Of a DNA stretch of 64,000 nucleotides, positions 4,582-55,393 are shown piece by piece. Both the position numbers and the translations under genes were made by a program. The stretch's first letter is position 1. Each line of letters opens with the position of its first letter. This DNA comes from a virus. A model generated the notes under the pieces. That model was not told where the DNA came from. It ran no database searches and saw nothing but the letters and a program-made list of their open reading frames with translations. The DNA is taken from positions 17,807 to 81,806 of IMG/VR virus record IMGVR_UViG_3300032883_000188. The stretch is one strand, 5' to 3'.

Positions 4582-4929
4582 TTACAGGTTTAACTTTTTC
4601 TCCTTTGCTTTTTTCTCTGGATGTGCAATAGCGTCTGGATGAACCGGGTCACCAAATGCGCTCATTTCGGGTACATCGATGTTGTGGTCAACCAAAATTT
4701 TTCGAAGCATAAGAACGCAACTATAGAGATTGTCATACTTCGTGCGCCAGTTTTCATTGGCGGAAGTAAGCTGTTCTACACGCTCCTGTAGGCGTGAAAC
4801 TTCGTCTCTAAGTAAGGAAATTTCATCCCTGTGTGCCGCTCGTTTATCGACAGCACGGGAACTGATGAAGGCAAGGATACCAGTTATAATACCGCCGATG
4901 GCGAGAAGCAGGGTTGCATCTATTTGCAT
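4582..4929 (-). CDS. N-terminally anchored coiled-coil membrane protein (possible lysis accessory)
   Basis: TM helix then heptad coiled coil; GGGAGG RBS. Confidence 0.6.
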   Translation of the reverse strand: MQIDATLLLAIGGIITGILAFISSRAVDKRAAHRDEISLLRDEVSRLQERVEQLTSANENWRTKYDNLYSCVLMLRKILVDHNIDVPEMSAFGDPVHPDAIAHPEKKAKEKKLNL

Positions 4930-39776: not shown

Positions 39777-41336
39777 TTATATCGTAACAGCGCTGTACTC
39801 TTCGGAGTTCAATACTTCTAGCATTGCGTCATAGGCAGTTACACCTACGGCGTTTAAAATGCCCTTAAATACACTTGGAGACTGTCCGCTTGCAAGCTGG
39901 ATACCGTGCTCATCCTTGGTGGCGTGAAACACGTTGCCGTTGCGGGAGTCAACATTCCAATAAACCATGTCTGGTAGTTCGTAACCAGCATGTGCGAATC
40001 TGGTCTTTAGCTCGGTAGTGAAGTCAACCTTGCGGCTGGTGCTACGACTATTACGGCTCATGAAACTATAACCGTTTTGAACACTATCGATTTCCATATC
40101 GGAGATAACCACAATCTTTGCTGGCATGTCTTCCTGAGAAACCTTGTTCTTTACAGCAACATCCAGAAGCAGTTCGAAAACAGCTTCCAAGTTGGTGTTG
40201 GAGTCGTCATGGTCAACGCAAGCAACCTTGTCCTTAAGAGTTGCACCCTTAAGCGTAATGAAATGAGGTGTGCTTGAGAAGGTCATGAACTGGTTGTGGA
40301 ACTGCCCCTTATTGTGCTCGGCAAAGTAAATACCAAGACCAATGGAGGTGCAAACAGGACGACCCTGCATAGAACCGGAAGTGTCCGCAACAATCAAGAC
40401 ATTCTCCCCGTTTTCCACATAATTAGGAAGAGCATTCCACTGTGCTTCAAGAGTCTCATCCCAAGAGGCAAGACCGTATACATCATGACGACCACTATAA
40501 TAACCGCGTCTTCCATCCGTATAGTAACCTGCGCTCAAACCAGCCTTTTCCAAGATATCGTAAGGGTAAAGAGTTGCAGAGTGAATAACTGCATCACCCT
40601 TCTTGACAGCCTCAAGATACTTGACAAAACGCTCACCATCGTGCTTTGAGAACGCCTTACGGCTGTTCGTCATAGCCTTACTGCAAACCTTCTCGAAATC
40701 AATTTCATTCCAGTTGTTTGCAGACATTTTCTTTTCAACAACCGCATTACCCAACGCACCACGAATGTTGGAAAGGATTCTGCGGTAATCGCGCTCGGAG
40801 AAACCCAACTTGTTGGCGGTATAACGTCCCAAAGCGCGGGTCTTCAAAGAAGATGAGTTAACGGACTTGAGCCACTTTGCAAGCAAAGAAGGACTCTTGC
40901 CCTTGGTACGGATTGTCTTAATATCCTCTACCAATTGGGTGCTAATAAAGCCCCACATCTCATTTTCTATTGGAGTATCAATGAACATATACAGGTCGTC
41001 CCAACGTCCAAAGACAGGAACAAGGTGCATGTTCTTTTTCATGATTTCTGGTACGTTAATAGCCAACCAGCGCCACATGAAACGGCTGACAGTACGCTCA
41101 CCCAAGCCACCGCGAATGTTACGTGCATAGAAACTTAACTTGGTAGCAAGCAAGCGGTCTTCCGCAAAAGCGGATGCGAACATGTCGATTACATCGCCCG
41201 GGCGGGTGCGCAATGCACCAACCGTGCCATATAAATCGAGTAAAGAACTTCCAGTGCTGGAACGAGCAATCTGTCCGTTCTCCGTGAAAGTCCAGTTGAA
41301 TTCCTCACCCAATAGAGTTGCGAAATTCTTGTTCAT
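39777..41336 (-). CDS. DUF2828-family protein: Ro60/TROVE-like helical domain plus vWA (MIDAS) domain
   Basis: TENG..A..STG..LLDL, FYARNIRGG.GER, G.WDDL, LAKW, LYPYDI, QW.ALP, ADTSGSM (DxSxS), TNL..VF, ISDMEID, YWNV, SG.S. Confidence 0.85.
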   Translation of the reverse strand: MNKNFATLLGEEFNWTFTENGQIARSSTGSSLLDLYGTVGALRTRPGDVIDMFASAFAEDRLLATKLSFYARNIRGGLGERTVSRFMWRWLAINVPEIMKKNMHLVPVFGRWDDLYMFIDTPIENEMWGFISTQLVEDIKTIRTKGKSPSLLAKWLKSVNSSSLKTRALGRYTANKLGFSERDYRRILSNIRGALGNAVVEKKMSANNWNEIDFEKVCSKAMTNSRKAFSKHDGERFVKYLEAVKKGDAVIHSATLYPYDILEKAGLSAGYYTDGRRGYYSGRHDVYGLASWDETLEAQWNALPNYVENGENVLIVADTSGSMQGRPVCTSIGLGIYFAEHNKGQFHNQFMTFSSTPHFITLKGATLKDKVACVDHDDSNTNLEAVFELLLDVAVKNKVSQEDMPAKIVVISDMEIDSVQNGYSFMSRNSRSTSRKVDFTTELKTRFAHAGYELPDMVYWNVDSRNGNVFHATKDEHGIQLASGQSPSVFKGILNAVGVTAYDAMLEVLNSEEYSAVTI

Positions 41337-41363
41337 TGTGAATCTCCCTTAGAATTTTAGTCT

Positions 41364-41394
41364 AGGCACATTTCGGAAAACGCTGTTAGTGCCT
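41364..41394 (-). ncRNA. ACAGC-array unit 1 (minimal)
   Basis: AGGCAC-UAACAGC-GUUUUCCGAAAU-GUGCCU. Confidence 0.6.
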
Positions 41395-41409
41395 GAATTC
41401 TTATTTGGC

Positions 41410-41468
41410 TAGACACCCTTTTCTCCAATTATCATTTGGGTTTTCATTTGGGTTGCTGTAGGCGTCTA
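41410..41468 (-). ncRNA. ACAGC-array unit 2
   Basis: UAGACGCC/GGUGUCUA stem (G.U), UACAGCAACCCAAA, internal CCAA-AUGAUAA-UUGG hairpin. Confidence 0.7.
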
Positions 41469-41484
41469 ATTTTATAATTGCATC

Positions 41485-41574
41485 AAGACAGTTTGTTTTT
41501 ATTAAAAATCGCATTGCAATTTTTCTCGGAATCGAACCAAGTTTATCCAGTTGTTGTGTCGCTGTAACTGTCTT
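41485..41574 (-). ncRNA. ACAGC-array unit 3 (tRNA-like T arm)
   Basis: AAGACAGUU/AACUGUCUU stem, ACAGCGACACAA, CUUGG-UUCGAUU-CCGAG T arm then a 9-bp hairpin. Confidence 0.7.
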
Positions 41575-41592
41575 TCTTATATAATCTTATGC

Positions 41593-41651
41593 AAGACCCG
41601 TAAACATTTCACATTAACAGTGTGGGTTTTTTGAGTTGCAGTGAGGGTCTT
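41593..41651 (-). ncRNA. ACAGC-array unit 4
   Basis: AAGACCC/GGGUCUU stem, CACUGCAACUCAAA, CACA-CUGUUAA-UGUG hairpin. Confidence 0.7.
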
Positions 41652-41669
41652 AAATTTATTATTTTATGC

Positions 41670-41728
41670 AAGGCACTATTAACATTTTCATCCATTGAAA
41701 GGTTTGTTTGGGTTGCTGTGAGTGCCTT
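41670..41728 (-). ncRNA. ACAGC-array unit 5
   Basis: AAGGCACU/AGUGCCUU stem, CACAGCAACCCAAA, UUUCA-AUGGA-UGAAA hairpin. Confidence 0.7.
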
Positions 41729-41776
41729 CTTACTTGCTGACCATTATCAGCCTTTCTTTCACTCTTTTCTATTTTC

Positions 41777-41844
41777 ACGGCTCATTTTGAAGTGACATTC
41801 AATTTTTTGGGGTCATTTTGTATTTGGGTTGCTGTATAAGCCGT
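41777..41844 (-). ncRNA. ACAGC-array unit 6
   Basis: ACGGCUUAU/AUGAGCCGU stem (U.G), ACAGCAACCCAAA. Confidence 0.7.
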
Positions 41845-41857
41845 AATTTATATATTC

Positions 41858-41886
41858 ATTATACCATATTTTTCATATTTTGTCAA
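41858..41886 (-). promoter_or_regulatory. consensus sigma70/sigmaA promoter inside the array
   Basis: TTGACA-17 nt-TATAAT with extended TG; predicted start just 5' of unit 6. Confidence 0.85.
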
Positions 41887-41968
41887 GACTCGGTTTTTAG
41901 CCTTTTTTCTCCGTCATGCTTGGGACGCAATATCCATAACTGTAAGTATGAATGCTGTACAAAGTCTT
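41885..41968 (-). ncRNA. ACAGC-array unit 7
   Basis: AAGACUU/GAGUCUU stem (U.G), UACAGCAUUCA, internal CGUC/GACG hairpin. Confidence 0.6.
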
Positions 41969-41985
41969 TAGAATATGAATTCGTG

Positions 41986-42015
41986 CCGGGACGCATATAT
42001 TGCGCTTTATCCCGG
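41986..42015 (-). ncRNA. ACAGC-array unit 8 (degenerate minimal)
   Basis: CCGGGA-UAAAGC-GCAAUAUAUGCG-UCCCGG. Confidence 0.4.
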
Positions 42016-42054
42016 TGACATCCCATGGATTAGACCCCTACTTTTTTTATATCC

Positions 42055-42141
42055 AAGGCTCGTTTTTTTCGGGGCTAACCCTCGGGATGGCTGTGCCATC
42101 AGACGGTTTTTCAACCAAGTTTGGGTTGCTGTATGAGCCTT
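42055..42141 (-). ncRNA. ACAGC-array unit 9
   Basis: AAGGCUC/GAGCCUU stem, AUACAGCAACCCAAA, three internal hairpins (GGUU-GAAA-AACC; GAUGGC-ACA-GCCAUC; GGG-UUAG-CCC). Confidence 0.7.
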
Positions 42142-42145
42142 ATAG

Positions 42146-42217
42146 CTGGCGGGAAAGGATTCGAACCTCTAACCTTGACGTTCAGAGCGTCCTGCGCTAC
42201 CGTTGCGCTACTCGCCA
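42146..42217 (-). tRNA. tRNA-Gln(CTG)
   Basis: Cloverleaf; GACG-CTCTGAA-CGTC; GGTTCGAATCC; CCA not encoded. Confidence 0.85.
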
Positions 42218-42221
42218 ATGT

Positions 42222-42800
42222 TTAAGCACATTTTAATGTGCCATATGCCTTTTGCCTATATGCTATAATATTATCATCCCTTATAACATAAGAAAAATCG
42301 CTTTTTGAAAGTCTTTGCATTTCCCTATTTATTTCAGAAGGATTGCAATTGCGCCATTCAAAAGTAATACTATCTATTGCGTCTACATCGAACTGCTTCA
42401 ATATCTCGCAATCATGACCTTCGGCATCTATTTTCAAATAATCAATCTTTTCAACTTTATGTTTTTCAAGAAGGTCTGCAACTGTTATCATTGGTAGTAC
42501 TATTTCACTCAAAATGTTTCTTGCATTATCAGTATGGTATTTATGTAAAGAGCCTACACCTCTCATCCAATCTCCCAAATTCATCCTCTTTATGGTTTCT
42601 TGGGTGACATAGTAAAAAGGAAAATTTCCTCTTTCAGTTCCGATAATTGAATTTTCGTAGGATACACCTTCTACACGCTCAATCAGATTAAAATACTCGG
42701 GCACTGGTTCTACAACCAAGCCATTCCAGCCCTCATCACGAGCCAGATAAACAAGATTTGAAAAGTAGTTTGCACCAATTTCTACAAAGAATTTTTTCAT
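42222..42800 (-). CDS. FkbM-family SAM-dependent methyltransferase
   Basis: FVEIGAN, GLVVEP, IDYLKIDAEGHD. Confidence 0.88.
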   Translation of the reverse strand: MKKFFVEIGANYFSNLVYLARDEGWNGLVVEPVPEYFNLIERVEGVSYENSIIGTERGNFPFYYVTQETIKRMNLGDWMRGVGSLHKYHTDNARNILSEIVLPMITVADLLEKHKVEKIDYLKIDAEGHDCEILKQFDVDAIDSITFEWRNCNPSEINREMQRLSKSDFSYVIRDDNIIAYRQKAYGTLKCA

Positions 42801-42819
42801 TGACTCCTCTTAAATAAGG

Positions 42820-42890
42820 CAGGTAGTGAGAGATTCGAACTCCCGTCAGAAGTTTTGGAGACAACTATCCTTCCACTAGACGAACCACCT
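42820..42890 (-). tRNA. tRNA-Trp(CCA)
   Basis: AGGTGGT/ACTACCT acceptor, CTCCAAA loop, GTTCGAATC; weak anticodon stem. Confidence 0.75.
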
Positions 42891-42951
42891 GTGCATCAGA
42901 CGCCATTACTGGCGTCTAAAGAACTTTTTGTACACATGGTACATAAGGCTG

Positions 42952-43024
42952 TGGAGCAGGTGGGTTTCGAACCCGCGACCTCTTCAATGCCATTGAAGCG
43001 CTCTCCCAATTGAGCTACAACCCC
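42952..43024 (-). tRNA. tRNA-Ala(GGC)
   Basis: CTTCA-ATGGCAT-TGAAG; G3.U70. Confidence 0.88.
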
Positions 43025-43028
43025 ATAG

Positions 43029-43101
43029 TGGACTAGACGAGACTCGAACTCGTAATCTTCTCGTTGCGGACGAGACGCGTTCCCGCTTGCGCTACAAGCC
43101 C
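43029..43101 (-). tRNA. tRNA-Ala(CGC), C33 variant
   Basis: TCTCG-TCCGCAA-CGAGA; G3.U70; A73. Confidence 0.75.
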
Positions 43102-43119: not shown

Positions 43120-43193
43120 TGGACACGGCGAGACTCGAACTCGCAATTCCTTCTTGCAAAGGAGGCGTTTTCCCGATTGGCTACTACGCGCCC
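43120..43193 (-). tRNA. tRNA-Ala(TGC)
   Basis: TTTGCAA loop; G3.U70; GTTCGAGTC. Confidence 0.8.
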
Positions 43194-43278: not shown

Positions 43279-43307
43279 ATTATACCACATAAACTTGCAT
43301 TTGTCAA
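43279..43307 (-). promoter_or_regulatory. consensus sigma70-type promoter for the tRNA cluster
   Basis: TTGACA-17-TATAAT with TGTGG extension. Confidence 0.85.
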
Positions 43308-45109: not shown

Positions 45110-48100
45110 TTAACCAAAGTTACCACCAAAAGCGGCTGTATCTGCACCGAGTTCTGATATACGGAAAAAACTATCAGCCTGTACAAGAACTGTTGTACCC
45201 GGTGCGGCACTAAATTGAAATTGTGGAATAATTGTTCCACCTGTGTTTATTCTCATAATTCCAGAAGCCCTAAGCCACCATGCTGTAGTACCCGTTGCAA
45301 CTATAACTGTTGCGGCGGCTGTTTGTACATGGGTACTGCTTTGGGCTGTACCCGTGGTATCCTCGGCAACAAATTGCCCTAAGCCCATATATCTTATTCT
45401 TGTATAGGTTGCCGTACCACCAAAAGCCAAAGCCTTTGTGCATGTGGTTGTACCATTGGTTACAGAAATAAATAAATCAAACCAATAGGTTTTATTTGCG
45501 GAGGCTGTAAATGCATCATGCGCGGCAGGAAAACACGGTTGTACTGCACCCGAACCACCCGTGTTGTAGCCTGTATAGTCGCCTGTATTAGAACACCAAT
45601 AAACAGTTGCGCCTGTAGCGCCTACGACACCTGTTGCTCCTGTTATACCTTGTATACCTGCGCCCGTTTGACCTTGGATACCAGTTTGACCCTGTATACC
45701 CGTTTGTCCTGTAGCACCTTGAGTACCACCACCTGTTGTACCTTGTATACCTGTAACACCTGTTAAGCCCTGTAAACCTGTACCTCCCTGAGAAACCCAT
45801 ATATCCCATTTTGTAGGAGATGAAGAAGGAGGGTTGCCTTGGTTAGCACCTGTTTTGGAAATATAGGCAGAGCCAGTATAAGATACAGCATCGGCAGTAG
45901 TATAAGTAGTACCTGTAACCCAAGCGCCATACCAAGAACCTTGTACGCTTTGTCCTGTAACACCTGTTAAACCTTGCAAACCTGTAACACCAGTTATACC
46001 CTGCGTACCCCCACCAGTTTGTCCTTGGATACCTGTTTGCCCCTGTATACCCGTTACACCTGTTAAACCTTGCGTACCTGCGCCTGTCTGACCTTGTATA
46101 CCAGTTTGACCTTGTATGCCTGTAACACCTGTTAAGCCCTGTGTACCTGCACCAGTTTGTCCCTGAATACCTGTTTGCCCTTGTATACCCGTAACACCTG
46201 TTAAACCTTGTATACCTGCGCCTGTCTGTCCTTGGATACCAGTTACACCTGTTACTCCTTGTATACCTGCGCCTGTTTGCCCTTGGATACCTGTCTGTCC
46301 TTGTATACCAGTTACACCTGTTACTCCTTGTATACCTGCGCCTGTTTGTCCTTGTATACCCGTTTGTCCAGTAGCGCCCGGTACATTAGAGATACCTGTA
46401 ATACCTTGTAAACCTGTTTGTCCCTGTATACCTGTTTGTCCCTGTATACCTGTTTGCCCTTGTATACCCGTTTGCCCTGTAGCGCCCGGTACATTAGAAA
46501 CTCCGGTTTGTCCTTGTAAACCCGTGACACCAGTTAAACCTTGTACACCTGTTTGCCCCTGTATACCTGTTTGACCAGTAGCGCCCGGTACGTTCGAAAC
46601 TCCGGTTTGCCCTTGAAGTCCTGTTACGCCTGTTAATCCCTGTGCGCCTGTCTGTCCTTGAATACCTGTTTGTCCGGTAGCACCCGGTACATTAGAAACA
46701 CCCGTAGCTCCTGTTGTACCTTGTATACCCGCGCCTGTTGTACCTTGTATACCTGTAGCACCTTGTATACCCGTTCGTCCAGTTACACCCGTGATGCCCT
46801 GTGTACCAACACCTGTAATACCTTGAAGTCCTGTTACACCCTGAATACCAGTTTGTCCGGTTGCACCGGGAACGTTGGAAACACCCGTCTGTCCTTGAAG
46901 CCCGGTTACACCTGTTAAACCTTGAATGCCCGTAACACCCTGTATACCTGTTTGTCCGGTAGCACCCGGCACGTTAGATATACCTGTAATACCCTGCAAA
47001 CCTGTCTGTCCTTGTATACCAGTTTGCCCTTGTATACCCGTTTGCCCTGTAGCACCGGGTACATTAGATACACCCGTAACACCCGTTATACCCTGTATAC
47101 CCGTAACTCCGGTTAAACCCTGTGTGCCTACTCCGGTTTGTCCTTGAATACCAGTGTTTCCCTGTCCAACCCACAAATCCCAATGGGATGCATCGGTAGG
47201 AAGATTGCCTTGGTTTGCATTTGTGTTTGATATATAAGAAGAACTATTGTAAGATACAGAATCGGCAATAGAGTAGCTAACACCTGTAACCCATGCACCA
47301 TACCATGTACCAGCAACGCTGAGACCTGTTACACCTGTTAACCCTTGAATGCCTGTTGTACCCTGCACGCCAGTAGCACCAATTGCGCCCTGCATTGCCA
47401 TAACAAGAAGGTCGGTTCTATTAACAGCAACCGTACCGCTTCCTGAAACCCTGTACATTCTGCCTTTAACCGTGTATGTACCTGCGGCTAAAGGTGTATC
47501 AGTTCTATGTACAATAGTTACGGTAAGCAAACTTGTACTGGTTACATGAACCACTTCAACATCGTGGTCAGTACCATTAAAATTTATTGCTATACCAATA
47601 TCAGAAACACCACCCGAATCCAAATATATCTGGCAGGTCATAAATGTGGCAATATTCGAAGTTGAACCAGTAGTAATATTGGTGGTTGCGTTAGTAATGT
47701 CTTTGATAGTGCCAACATTATCTGTTGTTATGGTTGTTGTTTCAACATAAGAGGATGGCAATTCACCTGCAACTGCCGCCGCTCCCATTATACCTGTTAC
47801 ACCTTGTATTCCTGTTACACCTGTTACACCCTGTACACCCGCTCCGGTTTGTCCTTGTATACCTGTCTGTCCTGTAGCGCCGGGTACATTTGAAATACCT
47901 GTGATACCTTGAAGACCTGTAATACCTTGTAAACCCGTAACACCTTGTATACCTGTCTGTCCTGTAGCGCCGGGTACGTTAGATACGCCTGTCTGTCCTT
48001 GTACACCCGTCTGCCCTTGTATACCAGTTTGTCCCTGTATACCTGTTGCACCCGTAACACCTGTAAAACCTGCTCCGGGTACGCCTGTCTGCCCCTGTAT

Positions 48101-49036
48101 ACCTGTTACACCAGTTACACCCTGTATACCTGCTCCGGTTGTACCCTGAATACCAGTTTGTCCAGTAGCACCGGGTACGTTAGAAACGCCCGTAATGCCT
48201 TGAAGACCAGTAATACCTTGTATACCCGTTTGCCCCTGTATACCTGTTTGTCCAGTAGCACCCTGTACGTTGGAGACGCCTGTTGCACCCTGTATACCTG
48301 TTACACCAGTTAAACCTTGTACACCCGTAGCACCCTGTATACCCGTTCTTCCGGTTACACCAGTAATGCCCTGCAAACCAGTGATACCCTGTATACCAGT
48401 TTGTCCTTGGATACCTGTCTGTCCCGTTGCACCCGGCACATTTGAAACTCCGGTTTGCCCCTGAAGACCTGTAGAGCCTGTTGTACCAAGACCCGTAATA
48501 CCTTGTATACCTGTAGCACCTTGAATGCCCGTAACACCCTGTATACCCGTCTGTCCGGTAGCACCTGCTACGTTAGAAACACCTGTTGCACCCTGTATAC
48601 CCGTTACACCCGTTAAACCTTGTATACCTGTTGCACCTTGAATACCCGTTCTTCCGGTTACGCCTGTTAAACCTTGCAAACCAGTAATACCCTGCAAACC
48701 TGTTTGCCCTTGAACACCAGTTTGTCCAGTAGCACCCGGTACATTAGAAACGCCTGTAATTCCTTGTAAGCCAGTAGTACCCTGCATACCCGTAGTGCCC
48801 TGAACACCTGTAGCGCCATCGCTACCCACATATCCAGCCGAACCAGTAACTCCCTGCATACCCGTAACACCGGGTATGTTGGAGATACCTGTTACCCCCT
48901 GTTGCCCTTTATCCCCTTTAGTACCAATTTGTGAAATTTCTACAACTGTTTCTTCATCTGTTTCGATGATATTGAGGGTTACGTCCTGTTCGTTTTCTGT
49001 TATTTCTATTTTAATTTCATCGGGGTCTTGAGTCAT
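45110..49036 (-). CDS. long collagen-like (G-x-T/G-x-Q) fibre protein with CBM5/12-like modules
   Basis: Hundreds of Gly-X-Y triplets; two GAWVTG..Y...D.VSY..S.YIS modules; globular C-terminus. Confidence 0.88.
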
Positions 49037-54415: not shown

Positions 54416-55393
54416 CTAGAATTCAAAACCCAATATGTCGATGGAGCAGGTTGCCGGAGCACCTTGAGGCGTGGAGCACTTGATACCGAATACGTTGGTT
54501 GAAGCACCTACTCTTGCGCCATCTGCGGGTAAGACAAGAACCGCCAGATTGTTGGCTGTCAATGCCATAAAGTCACGAGAGTACTGCCAATCATCAGCAT
54601 TGGCGTTAAAACCAAGTGCCGCTTGTACAGTAGTCAAAGAAACACTTGCATTACGTATGATTACATGAGTTACCATACCGGATTTACCAGTTGTAACCGT
54701 ATAAAGATTGCTCTTCGTACCCACGTTCAAATCAACGTTATCAATAGTTGCCAGCAAGGTAAGCTTACCAGCTATGCCCGTAGCACCTGTGATACCTAGC
54801 CCTGTGATACCTTGTATACCTGTAGCACCTTGCACACCTGTTACACCAGTAGCAGAAATCGCACCTGTTGTACCCTGTACACCTGTTGCTCCCTGTATAC
54901 CCGTAGCGCCTTGTATGCCTGTTCTACCTGTAACCCCTACTAATCCGGTTACACCTTGTATACCTGTTACGCCTGTTACACCCGTAAAACCTAAACCTGT
55001 TACACCTGTTGTACCAAGTCCAGTAATACCCTGTATACCCGTAGCGCCTTGGACACCCGTAGTGCCTGTTACGCCTTGTACACCTGTTGCACCCGTAGTA
55101 CCTGTAGCCGCACCCACGCCCGTAGTACCCTGTATACCCGTTGCGCCTTGGATACCCGTTCTACCCGTAACGCCTTGTATACCTGTTACGCCTGTCATAC
55201 CCGTCAAACCTTGGATGCCAGCACCCGTAACACCTTGTATACCAGTTTGTCCTGTAGCACCTGCCACGTTGGATACACCAGTAGCGCCCTGTATACCAGC
55301 GCCAGTAGTGCCTTGGATGCCCGTTCTACCTGTTGTACCAATAAGACCAGTGACTCCTTGAGAGCCACCACCACCACCAATTACAATAGCCAT
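54416..55393 (-). CDS. short collagen-like protein
   Basis: G-x-T/G-x-Q triplets, globular C-terminus. Confidence 0.85.

What the first reader, a model, noticed from the sequence alone, without database searches (positions are those of the whole stretch)
39777..42141. Array of nine motif-sharing structured RNAs upstream of a Ro60/TROVE-like (DUF2828) vWA gene: candidate phage RNP system
Seen: the ORF-free region 41364-42141 contains nine units on the minus strand. Each has a 6-9 bp closing stem whose sequence differs between units but whose pairing is preserved (AGGCAC/GUGCCU, UAGACGCC/GGUGUCUA, AAGACAGUU/AACUGUCUU, AAGACCC/GGGUCUU, AAGGCACU/AGUGCCUU, ACGGCUUAU/AUGAGCCGU, AAGACUU/GAGUCUU, CCGGGA/UCCCGG, AAGGCUC/GAGCCUU). 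The 5' strand is followed by a conserved unpaired ACAGC (full ACAGCAACCCAAA in four units; ACUGC and AAAGC variants in two), then a variable insert. Three stems contain G.U pairs that would be A.C mismatches on the + strand, so the structure is RNA-level and strand-specific. Units are separated by AT-rich spacers, and most stems are followed by a G like a tRNA discriminator (unit 2 ends GCCA). The last unit ends 27 nt before the DUF2828 start codon. Established: Ro60/Rsr is a helical TROVE ring plus a vWA/MIDAS domain, and bacterial Y RNAs are encoded next to rsr. Inference: DUF2828 is a Ro-like RNA-binding ring loaded with a family of small RNAs sharing a stem+ACAGC handle and carrying variable cargo (decoys, adaptors or guides). 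An alternative is one CsrB-like multi-site sponge or leader. The handle differs from the classical Y-RNA bulged-C helix.
Basis: partly seen in the sequence, partly recalled or inferred. Interest (0 to 1): 0.92.

Follow-up and report, generated by a model that had tools for sequence, protein, structure and literature searches.

The report
Phage Ro60-like protein with tRNA-mimic RNAs
Next to a phage gene for a ring-shaped, Ro60-like RNA-binding protein lies a row of small RNA genes that share one conserved docking stem but carry different pieces of tRNA, and the same undescribed pairing recurs in many phages, where it may bait or repair the host's attacks on tRNA.

Summary
Six of the nine units (2, 3, 4, 5, 6, 9) belong to one RNA family. 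Each has a covarying 7-8 bp closing stem, two bases, a near-invariant ACAGCAA, a variable insert, then an invariant G. Unit 7 fits by pattern only; units 1 and 8 are unsupported.

The family is conserved and linked to DUF2828. Covariance models found it on the gene's strand in 79 of 84 viral loci and 47 of 80 genome/MAG loci. At least one hit at E<0.01 lay near the gene in 7 of 8 cultured-phage loci tested first (Staphylococcus, Bacillus, Mycobacterium LeBron, Listeria, Enterococcus, Campylobacter, E. coli SUSP1). Eighty control loci gave two hits, and the better one lies in a phage that also encodes DUF2828.

The protein model matches Ro60 over its full length (Z 17.4), although no sequence homology is detectable. 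Inserts are tRNA pieces: anticodon-loop-like hairpins (Lys and Asn loops commonest), T arms, permuted YrlA-like bodies and whole tRNAs.

Rfam holds no such family, and my literature searches found no description. The scan's earlier notes cover only canonical Ro60 arrays.

Best reading: a Ro60-type RNP with a new Y-RNA-like class. Binding, expression and function are untested.

The parts
39777..41336 (-). DUF2828 + DUF7788 (vWA/MIDAS) protein, 519 aa; Ro60-type fold
   Evidence: Pfam PF11443 E 4.5e-35 and PF25043 E 8.4e-36. PHROG 850 'RNA-binding protein' E 1.7e-118. AF2 pLDDT 85.8. Ro60 1yvr Z 17.4, rmsd 3.9, 399 aa. MIDAS D318/S320/S322 invariant in 40 sequences.
41364..41394 (-). Unit 1: 31-nt hairpin (6-bp stem, ACAGCG), 27 nt before the start codon; doubtful member, possibly a minimal handle in the 5' UTR
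   Evidence: R1 13.5 bits, E 2.8. Not reported by R2 at E<=5. Followed by A, not G. A similar minimal handle abuts the start codon in L130 2448-2492 (E 0.049).
41410..41468 (-). Unit 2: handle RNA. The insert holds a 4-bp hairpin with the anticodon-loop-like 7-nt loop AUGAUAA (41439-41425). G then CCA follow the stem.
   Evidence: R1 47.1 bits E 1.3e-7 (training row). R2 46.8 bits. Hairpin.
41485..41574 (-). Unit 3: handle RNA (ACAGCGA). The insert holds a T-arm-like hairpin with a 5-bp stem and loop UUCGAUU (41541-41525), plus a second 7-bp hairpin.
   Evidence: Not a training row of R1: 22 bits E 0.039. R2 35.5 bits E 2.7e-5. Hairpins.
41593..41651 (-). Unit 4: handle RNA (ACUGCAA variant). 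The insert hairpin has loop CUGUUAA (41624-41610), identical to a tRNA-Asn(GUU)-type anticodon loop.
   Evidence: R1 51.9 bits (training row). R2 46.1 bits. Hairpin.
41670..41728 (-). Unit 5: handle RNA. The insert hairpin has a 4-bp stem and loop AAUGGAU (41700-41686), D-arm-like by eye.
   Evidence: R1 58.4 bits (training row). R2 48.9 bits. Hairpin. The D-arm likeness is my reading, not a test.
41777..41844 (-). Unit 6: handle RNA with a 9-bp stem containing one G.U; first unit after the internal promoter
   Evidence: R1 37.9 bits E 1.3e-5 (training row). R2 39.7 bits.
41858..41886 (-). Perfect sigma-70-type promoter (TTGACA, 17 nt, TATAAT, with TG). Its -35 box overlaps the 3' end of unit 7.
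   Evidence: 12 of 12 matches. A like promoter stands before the array of the syntenic relative L126.
41885..41968 (-). Unit 7: probable diverged member (7-bp stem with one G.U, 3-nt gap, ACAGCAU, 3' G)
   Evidence: Found by my pattern rule only. Not reported by R1 at E<=10 or R2 at E<=5.
41986..42015 (-). Unit 8: 30-nt hairpin with AAAGC; not supported as a family member
   Evidence: No CM hit. Followed by C, not G.
42055..42141 (-). Unit 9: handle RNA with a 66-nt structured insert, starting 3 nt after tRNA-Gln
   Evidence: Not a training row: R1 32.1 bits E 2.5e-4. R2 34.2 bits E 5e-5.
42145..42217 (-). tRNA-Gln(CUG), directly upstream of the array on the same strand
   Evidence: ARAGORN. 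Rfam tRNA 57.4 bits.
42818..43101 (-). tRNA-Trp, tRNA-Ala(GGC) and tRNA-Ala(CGC): the start of the same-strand tRNA/sRNA block
   Evidence: ARAGORN. Rfam tRNA 45.7-53.8 bits.
43279..43307 (-). Second perfect sigma-70-type promoter, upstream of the tRNA block
   Evidence: 12 of 12 matches with TG.

Best explanation
The DUF2828 protein is a distant structural relative of Ro60: a helical TROVE-type ring plus a vWA/MIDAS domain. At least six of the units beside it, probably seven, are its partner RNAs. They form a new class of Y-RNA-like small RNAs.

Each RNA has a constant 'handle': a 7-8 bp helix with a fixed G-C third pair and C-G seventh pair, two bases, single-stranded ACAGCAA, and a G after the 3' strand. 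I infer that this handle docks on the protein. Each RNA also has a variable module that copies part of a tRNA: an anticodon stem-loop, a T arm, a permuted T-acceptor-D body as in YrlA, or a whole tRNA.

The RNAs are made from the same-strand tRNA/sRNA/mRNA transcripts driven by two strong promoters, and are presumably cut out like tRNAs. The resulting particles would display tRNA look-alikes. I think they most likely act in the conflict over tRNA during infection, either as baits for host anticodon nucleases and other tRNA-targeting enzymes, or as adaptors that bring damaged tRNAs or processing enzymes to the ring.

Shown here: the RNA family, its covariation, its genomic linkage to DUF2828, the Ro60-like fold and the tRNA-like modules. 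Inferred: binding, processing and biological role.
For: RNA family. The stem is 94.7% paired on 12 units, with 7 of 8 pairs changed on both sides. It is 94.5% paired on 56 hits and 95.6% on 82 hits from untrained genome/MAG loci. Slid controls pair 29-49%. The motif is A .91, C 1.0, A .98, G 1.0, C .99, A .92, A .98, and the 3' G is .99, over 132 distinct units. Pair 1 is G.U in 48 of 80 rows, so the structure is RNA-level and strand-specific.

Linkage. R1 gave 190 hits at E<=1 in 84 DUF2828 loci (521 kb), all on the gene's strand, in 79 of 84 loci by my count. In 80 control loci (363 kb) it gave 2 hits. In five whole phage records (75-290 kb) the strong hits cluster at the gene in three; the other two also have hits 3-80 kb away. 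R2 gave 82 hits at E<=0.01 in 47 of 80 genome/MAG loci, all on the plus strand. Seven of 8 cultured-phage loci are positive. The better control hit (L067) is a real unit in a phage that encodes DUF2828 11.4 kb away on the same strand. Units sit next to the gene even where no tRNA gene is near (L001, LeBron).

Protein. The 11 best Foldseek matches are all Ro60 chains (E 3e-7 to 6e-5). VIA gives Z 17.4 to X. laevis Ro60 and 14.3 to Thermus phage phiLo Ro60, against about 10 for vWA-only matches.

Modules. Of 87 short-unit clusters, 33 hold a hairpin with an anticodon-like 7-nt loop, against 3.3 +/- 1.7 in 300 dinucleotide shuffles (max 9). One of the 33 is a T-loop form. CUUUUAA occurs 7 times and CUGUUAA 6 times. 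T-loop motifs occur in 22 of 111 clusters against 0.5 expected. Rfam YrlA matches permuted units below threshold (L004 41.7 bits, L003 33.8 bits; gathering score 69). Four tRNA-like genes in L158 have the anticodon arm replaced by a hairpin plus ACAGCAA.

Context. RNA ligase, a PNK-like kinase or RtcB lies near the gene in 3 loci. PARIS AriB cleaves tRNA-Lys(UUU), Thr(UGU) and Asn(GUU) (abstract of PMC12409363).
Against: No experiment or read data shows that the RNAs are made, processed or bound.

The protein has no sequence-level match to TROVE. Pfam gave no TROVE hit at E<=0.01. hhalign against the Bxz1 Ro protein gave 6.7% probability, covering the MIDAS stretch only.

The handle shares no detectable likeness with canonical Y-RNA handles, so docking on the Ro-type surface is an analogy.

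Linkage is not absolute. Five of 84 viral loci and 33 of 80 genome/MAG loci had no hit at the thresholds used. The Vibrio phage locus had none. E. coli phage dune had only weak hits (E 0.06-0.75). Some units lie 3-80 kb from the gene.

Many of the 84 viral loci are close relatives, so independent lineages are far fewer than loci.

Neighbouring protein genes are not conserved, and RNA-repair genes are near in only 3 of about 20 loci looked at.

The decoy idea rests on loop identity alone. About 60% of short units have no anticodon-like hairpin.
Confidence: 0.65

Rival explanations
1. The units are small RNAs of the phage tRNA block that work with some other partner, such as a host tRNA-processing or modification enzyme or another phage protein. 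DUF2828 sits nearby only because both belong to a tRNA-related module.
For: The loci are embedded in tRNA arrays in most phages looked at. The modules are tRNA pieces. Some units lie 3-80 kb from the gene. No binding data exist.
Against: DUF2828 is the only gene consistently beside the units. Units flank the gene where no tRNA gene is near (L001, LeBron). A 7-nt motif kept at 91-100% across phages of Bacillota, Actinomycetota, Campylobacterota and Pseudomonadota hosts suggests a partner that travels with the phage. That partner has the fold of a known small-RNA-binding ring.
Confidence: 0.17
2. The array is a cis-acting part of the DUF2828 transcript. It would be a multi-site leader or trailer (CsrB-like sponge or autoregulatory operator) that controls the gene's own expression, rather than a set of separate trans-acting RNAs.
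For: All units are on the gene's strand with no terminator between array and gene in the window. Minimal handles abut the ribosome-binding site in the window (unit 1) and in L130.
Against: In relatives the arrays lie downstream of the gene (L001-L004, LeBron, Staphylococcus phage), upstream of it, or kilobases away. Units are interleaved with tRNA genes and have their own promoter. Their inserts carry independent tRNA-like folds. A leader explains none of this, although autoregulation through one proximal handle could coexist with the main reading.
Confidence: 0.08
3. The units are decayed tRNA genes or processing spacers of the tRNA operon, with no function of their own.
For: tRNA-derived pieces are common in the inserts. 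The window units sit directly after tRNA-Gln.
Against: The handle is not a tRNA feature, yet it is the most conserved part. The stems covary, which means selection on pairing. The family persists across proteins only 30-57% identical. No window unit scores as tRNA.
Confidence: 0.04
4. The repeats act as DNA, for example as recombination or attachment sites, replication or packaging signals, or protein-binding palindromes.
For: The region is a tandem repeat-like array in an intergenic stretch near the terminase module.
Against: G.U pairs are frequent (48 of 80 at pair 1) and would be A.C mismatches on the other strand. Sequence varies while pairing is kept. All 190 and all 82 hits are on the gene's strand.
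Confidence: 0.01

Closest known systems
Bacterial and phage Ro60 (Rsr) with YrlA-type Y RNAs (Rfam RF02553; Chen et al. 2014, PMC4201824: abstract, passages and Table S2 read)
   Same: A ring-plus-vWA protein of the Ro60 fold. Several small RNA genes lie next to it on the same strand. The RNAs are closed by a 5'/3' stem and carry tRNA-like modules, in some relatives in the same permuted T-acceptor-D order (sub-threshold YrlA hits). RNA ligase genes are sometimes nearby.
   Different: There is no detectable sequence homology to TROVE. The handle is stem + ACAGCAA + 3' G, and neither model finds the other's RNAs. Many units are only 55-65 nt long and display a lone anticodon-like hairpin, which I did not see described for Y RNAs in the passages I read. 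Chen's phage list covers Bacillus phage G, CcrColossus and cluster C mycobacteriophages with 552-aa Ro. It has no DUF2828 phage.
Thermus phage phiLo phiRo60 with Yrl1 and Yrl2 (PMC12135203: abstract and passages read; PDB 9KOP, 9L5Y)
   Same: A phage-encoded Ro60-fold protein with phage-encoded partner RNAs upstream of the gene. It is a structural match to the model here (Z 14.3-14.7, 17-18% identity).
   Different: phiRo60 is a canonical TROVE protein. Its RNAs were picked by a stem-bulge-stem shape with a CGAA motif, not ACAGCAA. It has two RNAs rather than arrays of up to seven or more, and the passages read report no tRNA-piece modules.
Phage tRNA genes as counter-defence against anticodon nucleases (PARIS AriB and T5 tRNAs: abstract of PMC12409363, listing of PMC11464382)
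   Same: The units sit in phage tRNA clusters. Their commonest anticodon-like loops (Lys UUU, Asn GUU) are those of tRNAs that AriB cleaves.
   Different: The units cannot decode. They lack acceptor, D or T parts and carry a protein-docking handle, so they could at most bait or titrate, not replace cleaved tRNAs. This link is an inference.
Phage T4 'species 1' and 'species 2' stable RNAs of the tRNA cluster (recalled; also named in earlier scan note e1-4035489)
   Same: They are small stable RNAs of unknown function encoded within a phage tRNA gene cluster.
   Different: I did not examine their sequences, so no link to the ACAGCAA handle or to DUF2828 is known to me.

Membership tests
DUF2828 / DUF7788 protein family (Pfam PF11443 + PF25043) | Match to both Pfam models above their gathering scores | tested here: met
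   121.7 bits (cut-off 29) and 123.7 bits (cut-off 27.1). At least 7937 relatives at E<=1e-5.
Ro60 / TROVE protein family | Fold: helical-repeat ring followed by a vWA domain, aligned over the full length | tested here: met
   The AF2 model (pLDDT 85.8, pTM 0.86) matches 1yvr at Z 17.4, rmsd 3.9 A, 399 residues (model 12-499 on chain 12-536). The ten best VIA rows are all Ro60.
Ro60 / TROVE protein family | Sequence signature (Pfam TROVE, or profile match to a canonical Ro60) | tested here: not met
   No TROVE hit at E<=0.01. The PDB profile search found only a weak vWA match (E 0.024). hhalign against Bxz1 Ro gave 6.7% probability, MIDAS stretch only.
Ro60 / TROVE protein family | MIDAS motif (DxSxS) in the vWA domain | tested here: met
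   D318, S320 and S322 are invariant in 40 aligned sequences. This stretch is the only part aligned with Bxz1 Ro.
Ro60 / TROVE protein family | Binds Y RNAs or misfolded RNA | not testable with these tools
   Needs RIP, EMSA or a solved complex.
Y RNA / YrlA (Rfam RF02553) | Score at or above the Rfam gathering score (69 bits) | tested here: not met
   No YrlA match on the window units at E<=10. The only YrlA hit (24.6 bits) lies over the two tRNA-Ala genes. The best scores in relatives are 41.7 and 33.8 bits.
Y RNA / YrlA (Rfam RF02553) | Encoded near a Ro60-type gene and on its strand | tested here: met
   Window array 27-805 nt upstream of the gene. All hits on the gene's strand, and all hits with E<=1.
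Y RNA / YrlA (Rfam RF02553) | The 5' and 3' ends pair in a stem that holds the protein-binding site | tested here: inconclusive
   A covarying terminal stem is present. Its sequence and the ACAGCAA element differ from the canonical handle, the RNA ends are unmapped and binding is untested.
Y RNA / YrlA (Rfam RF02553) | tRNA-like domain (T arm, closed acceptor stem, D arm) | tested here: inconclusive
   Present in relatives (L003 2884-3001, L004 4484-4597, L002 4556-4751). In the window only unit 3 has a T-arm-like hairpin, and units 2 and 4 have anticodon-like hairpins.
tRNA | Cloverleaf recognised by ARAGORN or the Rfam tRNA model | tested here: not met
   No tRNA call inside 41364-42141. Some units of relatives do enclose whole tRNAs (L004 4713-4784, L002 4633-4704).

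The most novel reading that the evidence does not exclude
DUF2828 particles are an RNA-based anti-defence device. The phage loads a Ro60-like ring with a set of handle-tagged anticodon stem-loops and tRNA bodies. These act as baits that absorb or block the host's tRNA-cleaving immune nucleases (PARIS AriB, PrrC and the like), or flag the cut tRNAs for repair. Each phage's array would then record which host tRNAs are under attack.
Probability: 0.25. Interest if true: 0.92.

Novelty: new variant of a known kind. Interest (0 to 1): 0.82.

Why it matters
DUF2828 is a large protein family with no assigned function. This search found at least 7937 relatives. tblastn found it in 693 cultured-phage records, including Felix O1-like coliphages, Listeria and Staphylococcus phages, Campylobacter phages and cluster L mycobacteriophages.

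The work here supplies three things:
- a fold (Ro60);
- a candidate ligand (a conserved, easily mutated RNA handle);
- a theme (display of tRNA pieces inside tRNA gene clusters).

The family's function therefore becomes directly testable in laboratory phage-host pairs. It would extend the Ro60/Y-RNA principle to a second, sequence-unrelated protein lineage that is commoner in phages than canonical Ro60. It also adds an unannotated RNA class, which genome annotators currently cover with spurious micro-ORFs. If the bait idea holds, it would be a new kind of phage counter-measure in the current arms race over tRNA.

Tried and rejected
- **Exact-motif scan of IMG/VR** with the 14-mer TACAGCAACCCAAA. 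It gave 117 single matches with no arrays, essentially chance. The fetched loci served as controls. One of them (L067) proved to be a real unit.
- **A loose stem+motif detector of my own**. It has too many false positives at long spans: 29 hits on the wrong strand of DUF2828 loci and about 77 per strand in the motif-selected controls. I used it only for unit 7 and for a first look at the inserts.
- **The 13-mer with up to 3 mismatches over the whole window** is not enriched (33 matches against 26.2 expected). Only the exact and near-exact copies in the array stand out.
- **Rfam on the array.** Nothing appeared but a chance porB match (17.8 bits, E 9.6).
- **PDB sequence searches.** The single protein found nothing. 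The profile found only a weak vWA hit.
- **NCBIfam and PADLOC** gave no family for the protein or its neighbours that bears on the finding.
- **Sequencing runs.** No RNA holder is listed. One DNA-type metagenome run holds a quarter of the sampled words. I did not lay reads.
- **Conserved protein neighbours.** None is shared across loci.
- **A second helix flanking ACAGCAA.** I saw one in single units (for example L001 4721-4785) but did not establish it across the family. MFE folds are inconsistent, and the motif's mean pairing probability is 0.30 against 0.42 for the inserts.
- **Literature.** 'DUF2828' returned 5 unrelated papers. The searches found no description of these RNAs. Subscription journals and bioRxiv supplements were not searchable.
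- **Earlier scan notes.** By sequence, nothing. By words, only canonical Ro60 arrays.

Full report
**What is in the window**

On the minus strand, a block starts at a perfect sigma-70-type promoter (43307-43279). It runs through tRNA-Ala, tRNA-Ala, tRNA-Trp, an FkbM-type methyltransferase ORF and tRNA-Gln (42145-42217). Three bases after tRNA-Gln the array of the finding begins, and it ends 27 nt before the ATG of a 519-aa ORF (39777-41336). A second perfect promoter (41886-41858) lies between units 7 and 6. The ORF matches Pfam DUF2828 and DUF7788 and PHROG 850, labelled 'RNA-binding protein'. The window is part of an 81.8-kb virus record. It carries terminase, portal, tape-measure and collagen-like tail-fibre genes.

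**Check of the nine units**

Loose pattern matching is uninformative, because my own detector finds many chance stems. I therefore built covariance models.

R1 was built from 4 window units and 8 units of relatives. In the 64-kb window it finds the four training units. It also finds unit 9 (E 2.5e-4) and unit 3 (E 0.039), and unit 1 only marginally (E 2.8). It misses units 7 and 8 and gives two weak strays. R2, built from 56 hits, finds the same six units and nothing else at E<=5.

So six units are members. Unit 7 is a plausible diverged one by pattern only. Units 1 and 8 are unsupported hairpins.

**The family outside the window**

The four closest IMG/VR relatives of the protein (37-41% identity) each have an ORF-free gap of 400-580 nt, here directly downstream of the gene. 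Each gap holds 3-4 units of the same design.

On three alignments the closing stem is 94.5-95.6% paired. Seven of 8 pairs change on both sides, and slid controls pair at 29-49%. The third alignment (82 hits) comes from genome/MAG loci that played no part in training.

Over 132 distinct units the consensus is: N-N-G-R-Y-N-C, two bases, ACAGCAA (each letter 91-100%), an insert, an A-rich run, G-N-R-Y-C-N-N, then G (99%). The third pair is G-C in 52 of 52 and 80 of 80 rows. Pair 1 is G.U in 48 of 80 rows, which fits RNA and not DNA.

**Linkage to DUF2828**

- R1 gave 190 hits (E<=1) in 84 DUF2828 loci, all on the gene's strand. Nearly all lie within about 1.2 kb upstream or 2.4 kb downstream. By my count 79 of 84 loci have a hit; L134, L135, L143, L153 and L155 have none. 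With R2, L153 gains two hits and L134 only a weak one.
- Eighty control phage loci, selected to contain the 14-mer, gave two hits. The better one is a genuine unit with a CUGUAAA hairpin. Its phage encodes DUF2828 11.4 kb away on the same strand.
- In five whole phage records the strong hits cluster at the gene in three. In the other two, hits also lie 3-80 kb away.
- R2 gave 82 hits (E<=0.01) in 47 of 80 genome/MAG loci, all on the gene's strand.
- Among cultured phages, tblastn finds the protein in 693 records. Of the eight loci tested first, seven have a unit near the gene at E<0.01 with R1 or R2: Staphylococcus S-CoN_Ph4, Bacillus vB_BcoS-136, Mycobacterium LeBron, Listeria LMSP-25, Enterococcus EFGrNG, Campylobacter PC14 and E. 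coli SUSP1. A Vibrio phage has none.
- Klebsiella KP2025 has one hit at E 0.007. E. coli phage dune has only weak hits.
- Many of the IMG/VR loci are near relatives of one another, so the number of independent lineages is much smaller than the number of loci.

**The protein**

Sequence methods do not connect it to Ro60. The AlphaFold2 model (pLDDT 85.8, pTM 0.86) does. The 11 best Foldseek matches in the PDB are Ro60 chains. VIA-align gives Z 17.4 (rmsd 3.9 A, 399 residues, model 12-499) to X. laevis Ro60 and 14.3-14.7 to the Ro60 of Thermus phage phiLo, against about 10 for vWA-only matches. The MIDAS residues are invariant. A shared fold does not prove a shared function.

**The inserts**

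They are largely tRNA pieces.

- Of 87 clusters of short units, 33 hold a hairpin with a 7-nt loop of anticodon-loop form, against 3.3 +/- 1.7 in dinucleotide shuffles (max 9 of 300). One of the 33 is a T-loop form. The commonest loops are CUUUUAA (7) and CUGUUAA (6). These read as Lys(UUU) and Asn(GUU) anticodon loops; that assignment is my reading of the loop letters, not a tool result.
- T-loop motifs occur in 22 of 111 clusters against 0.5 expected.
- In the window, unit 4 has CUGUUAA, unit 2 AUGAUAA, unit 3 a T-arm-like hairpin and unit 5 a D-arm-like one.
- Some units of relatives enclose a permuted T-acceptor-D body that the Rfam YrlA model recognises below threshold (41.7 and 33.8 bits). 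Others enclose whole tRNAs.
- In L158, four tRNA-like genes keep the acceptor, D and T arms but have the anticodon arm replaced by a hairpin followed by ACAGCAA. This is the same handle in the opposite permutation.

The handle thus behaves as a portable tag attached to tRNA parts.

**Comparison with what is known**

Ro60 with Y RNAs, including tRNA-like YrlA and arrays of several Y RNAs, is established in bacteria and some phages (PMC4201824: abstract, passages and Table S2 read; PMC12135203: abstract and passages read). Earlier notes of this scan call such arrays ordinary.

Here the protein lineage differs, and so does the handle. Chen's phage list holds only canonical Ro proteins. My model does not find the Bxz1 YrlA, and Rfam YrlA does not find the window units. 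Rfam 15 has no matching family. My literature searches found no description. That library lacks most subscription journals, so an existing description cannot be excluded.

**Mechanism**

I judge it about two in three that the units are the RNA partners of the DUF2828 ring. I put about one in four on the specific idea that the particles bait or counter tRNA-targeting host defences. That idea rests on three points:
- the tRNA-cluster setting;
- the Lys- and Asn-type loops, which match tRNAs that PARIS AriB cleaves (abstract of PMC12409363);
- RNA ligase, PNK-like or RtcB genes near three loci.

No expression data could be found.

Noticed in passing
window 43279-43307 and 41858-41886 (minus strand): Two perfect 12/12 sigma-70-type promoters with an extended -10 TG. 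One stands before the tRNA block and one inside the array. The -35 box of the second overlaps the 3' end of unit 7.
   Followed up: partly
window 43126-43188 (minus strand): A sub-threshold tRNA match (22.6 bits, gathering score 29) just downstream of the first promoter. It may be a decayed tRNA or another tRNA-like RNA.
   Followed up: no
window 42222-42800 (minus strand): An FkbM-family methyltransferase ORF is wedged between tRNA-Trp and tRNA-Gln, inside the tRNA/sRNA transcription unit.
   Followed up: no
L158 1172-1290, 1443-1564, 1620-1737, 1743-1869: Four tandem tRNA-like genes (42-47 bits on the tRNA model) have their anticodon arm replaced by a 54-62-nt insert holding a hairpin plus (A/U)CAGCAA. 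They cannot decode and look like handle-tagged tRNA bodies.
   Followed up: partly
L002 4556-4751: A handle unit whose permuted tRNA-like body carries a complete tRNA (59.8 bits, 4633-4704) nested in the loop of its closed acceptor stem.
   Followed up: no
L128 870-1261 and 1597-1988: A block of four units appears twice, 727 nt apart, with identical scores. This is a recent tandem duplication of part of the array.
   Followed up: no
L215 4510-4599 and 4729-4857; L211 5326-5496: In the GenBank records of Staphylococcus phage S-CoN_Ph4 and E. coli phage SUSP1, short 'hypothetical protein' CDS are annotated over or overlapping handle units. They are probably mis-annotations of RNA genes.
   Followed up: no
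L213 6341-7552; L004 5347-6027; L169 1233-2141: RNA-repair-type genes lie within 1-1.5 kb of the DUF2828 gene in three loci: RtcB 'tRNA-splicing ligase', an RNA ligase (PF09414) and a PNK-like AAA_33 kinase. This echoes the bacterial rsr-rtcB linkage.
   Followed up: partly
window array, L126 1915-2465, L127 395-531: The window and its two closest IMG/VR relatives (57% identity) share a longer handle, ACAGCAACCCAA, where other clades mostly have ACAGCAAU. This may reflect co-variation of the handle with the protein clade.
   Followed up: no
window 45110-49036 (minus strand): A 1308-aa tail-fibre-like protein with long collagen triple-helix repeats (Pfam Collagen E 2e-93). A second collagen-like ORF lies at 54416-55393.
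   Followed up: no
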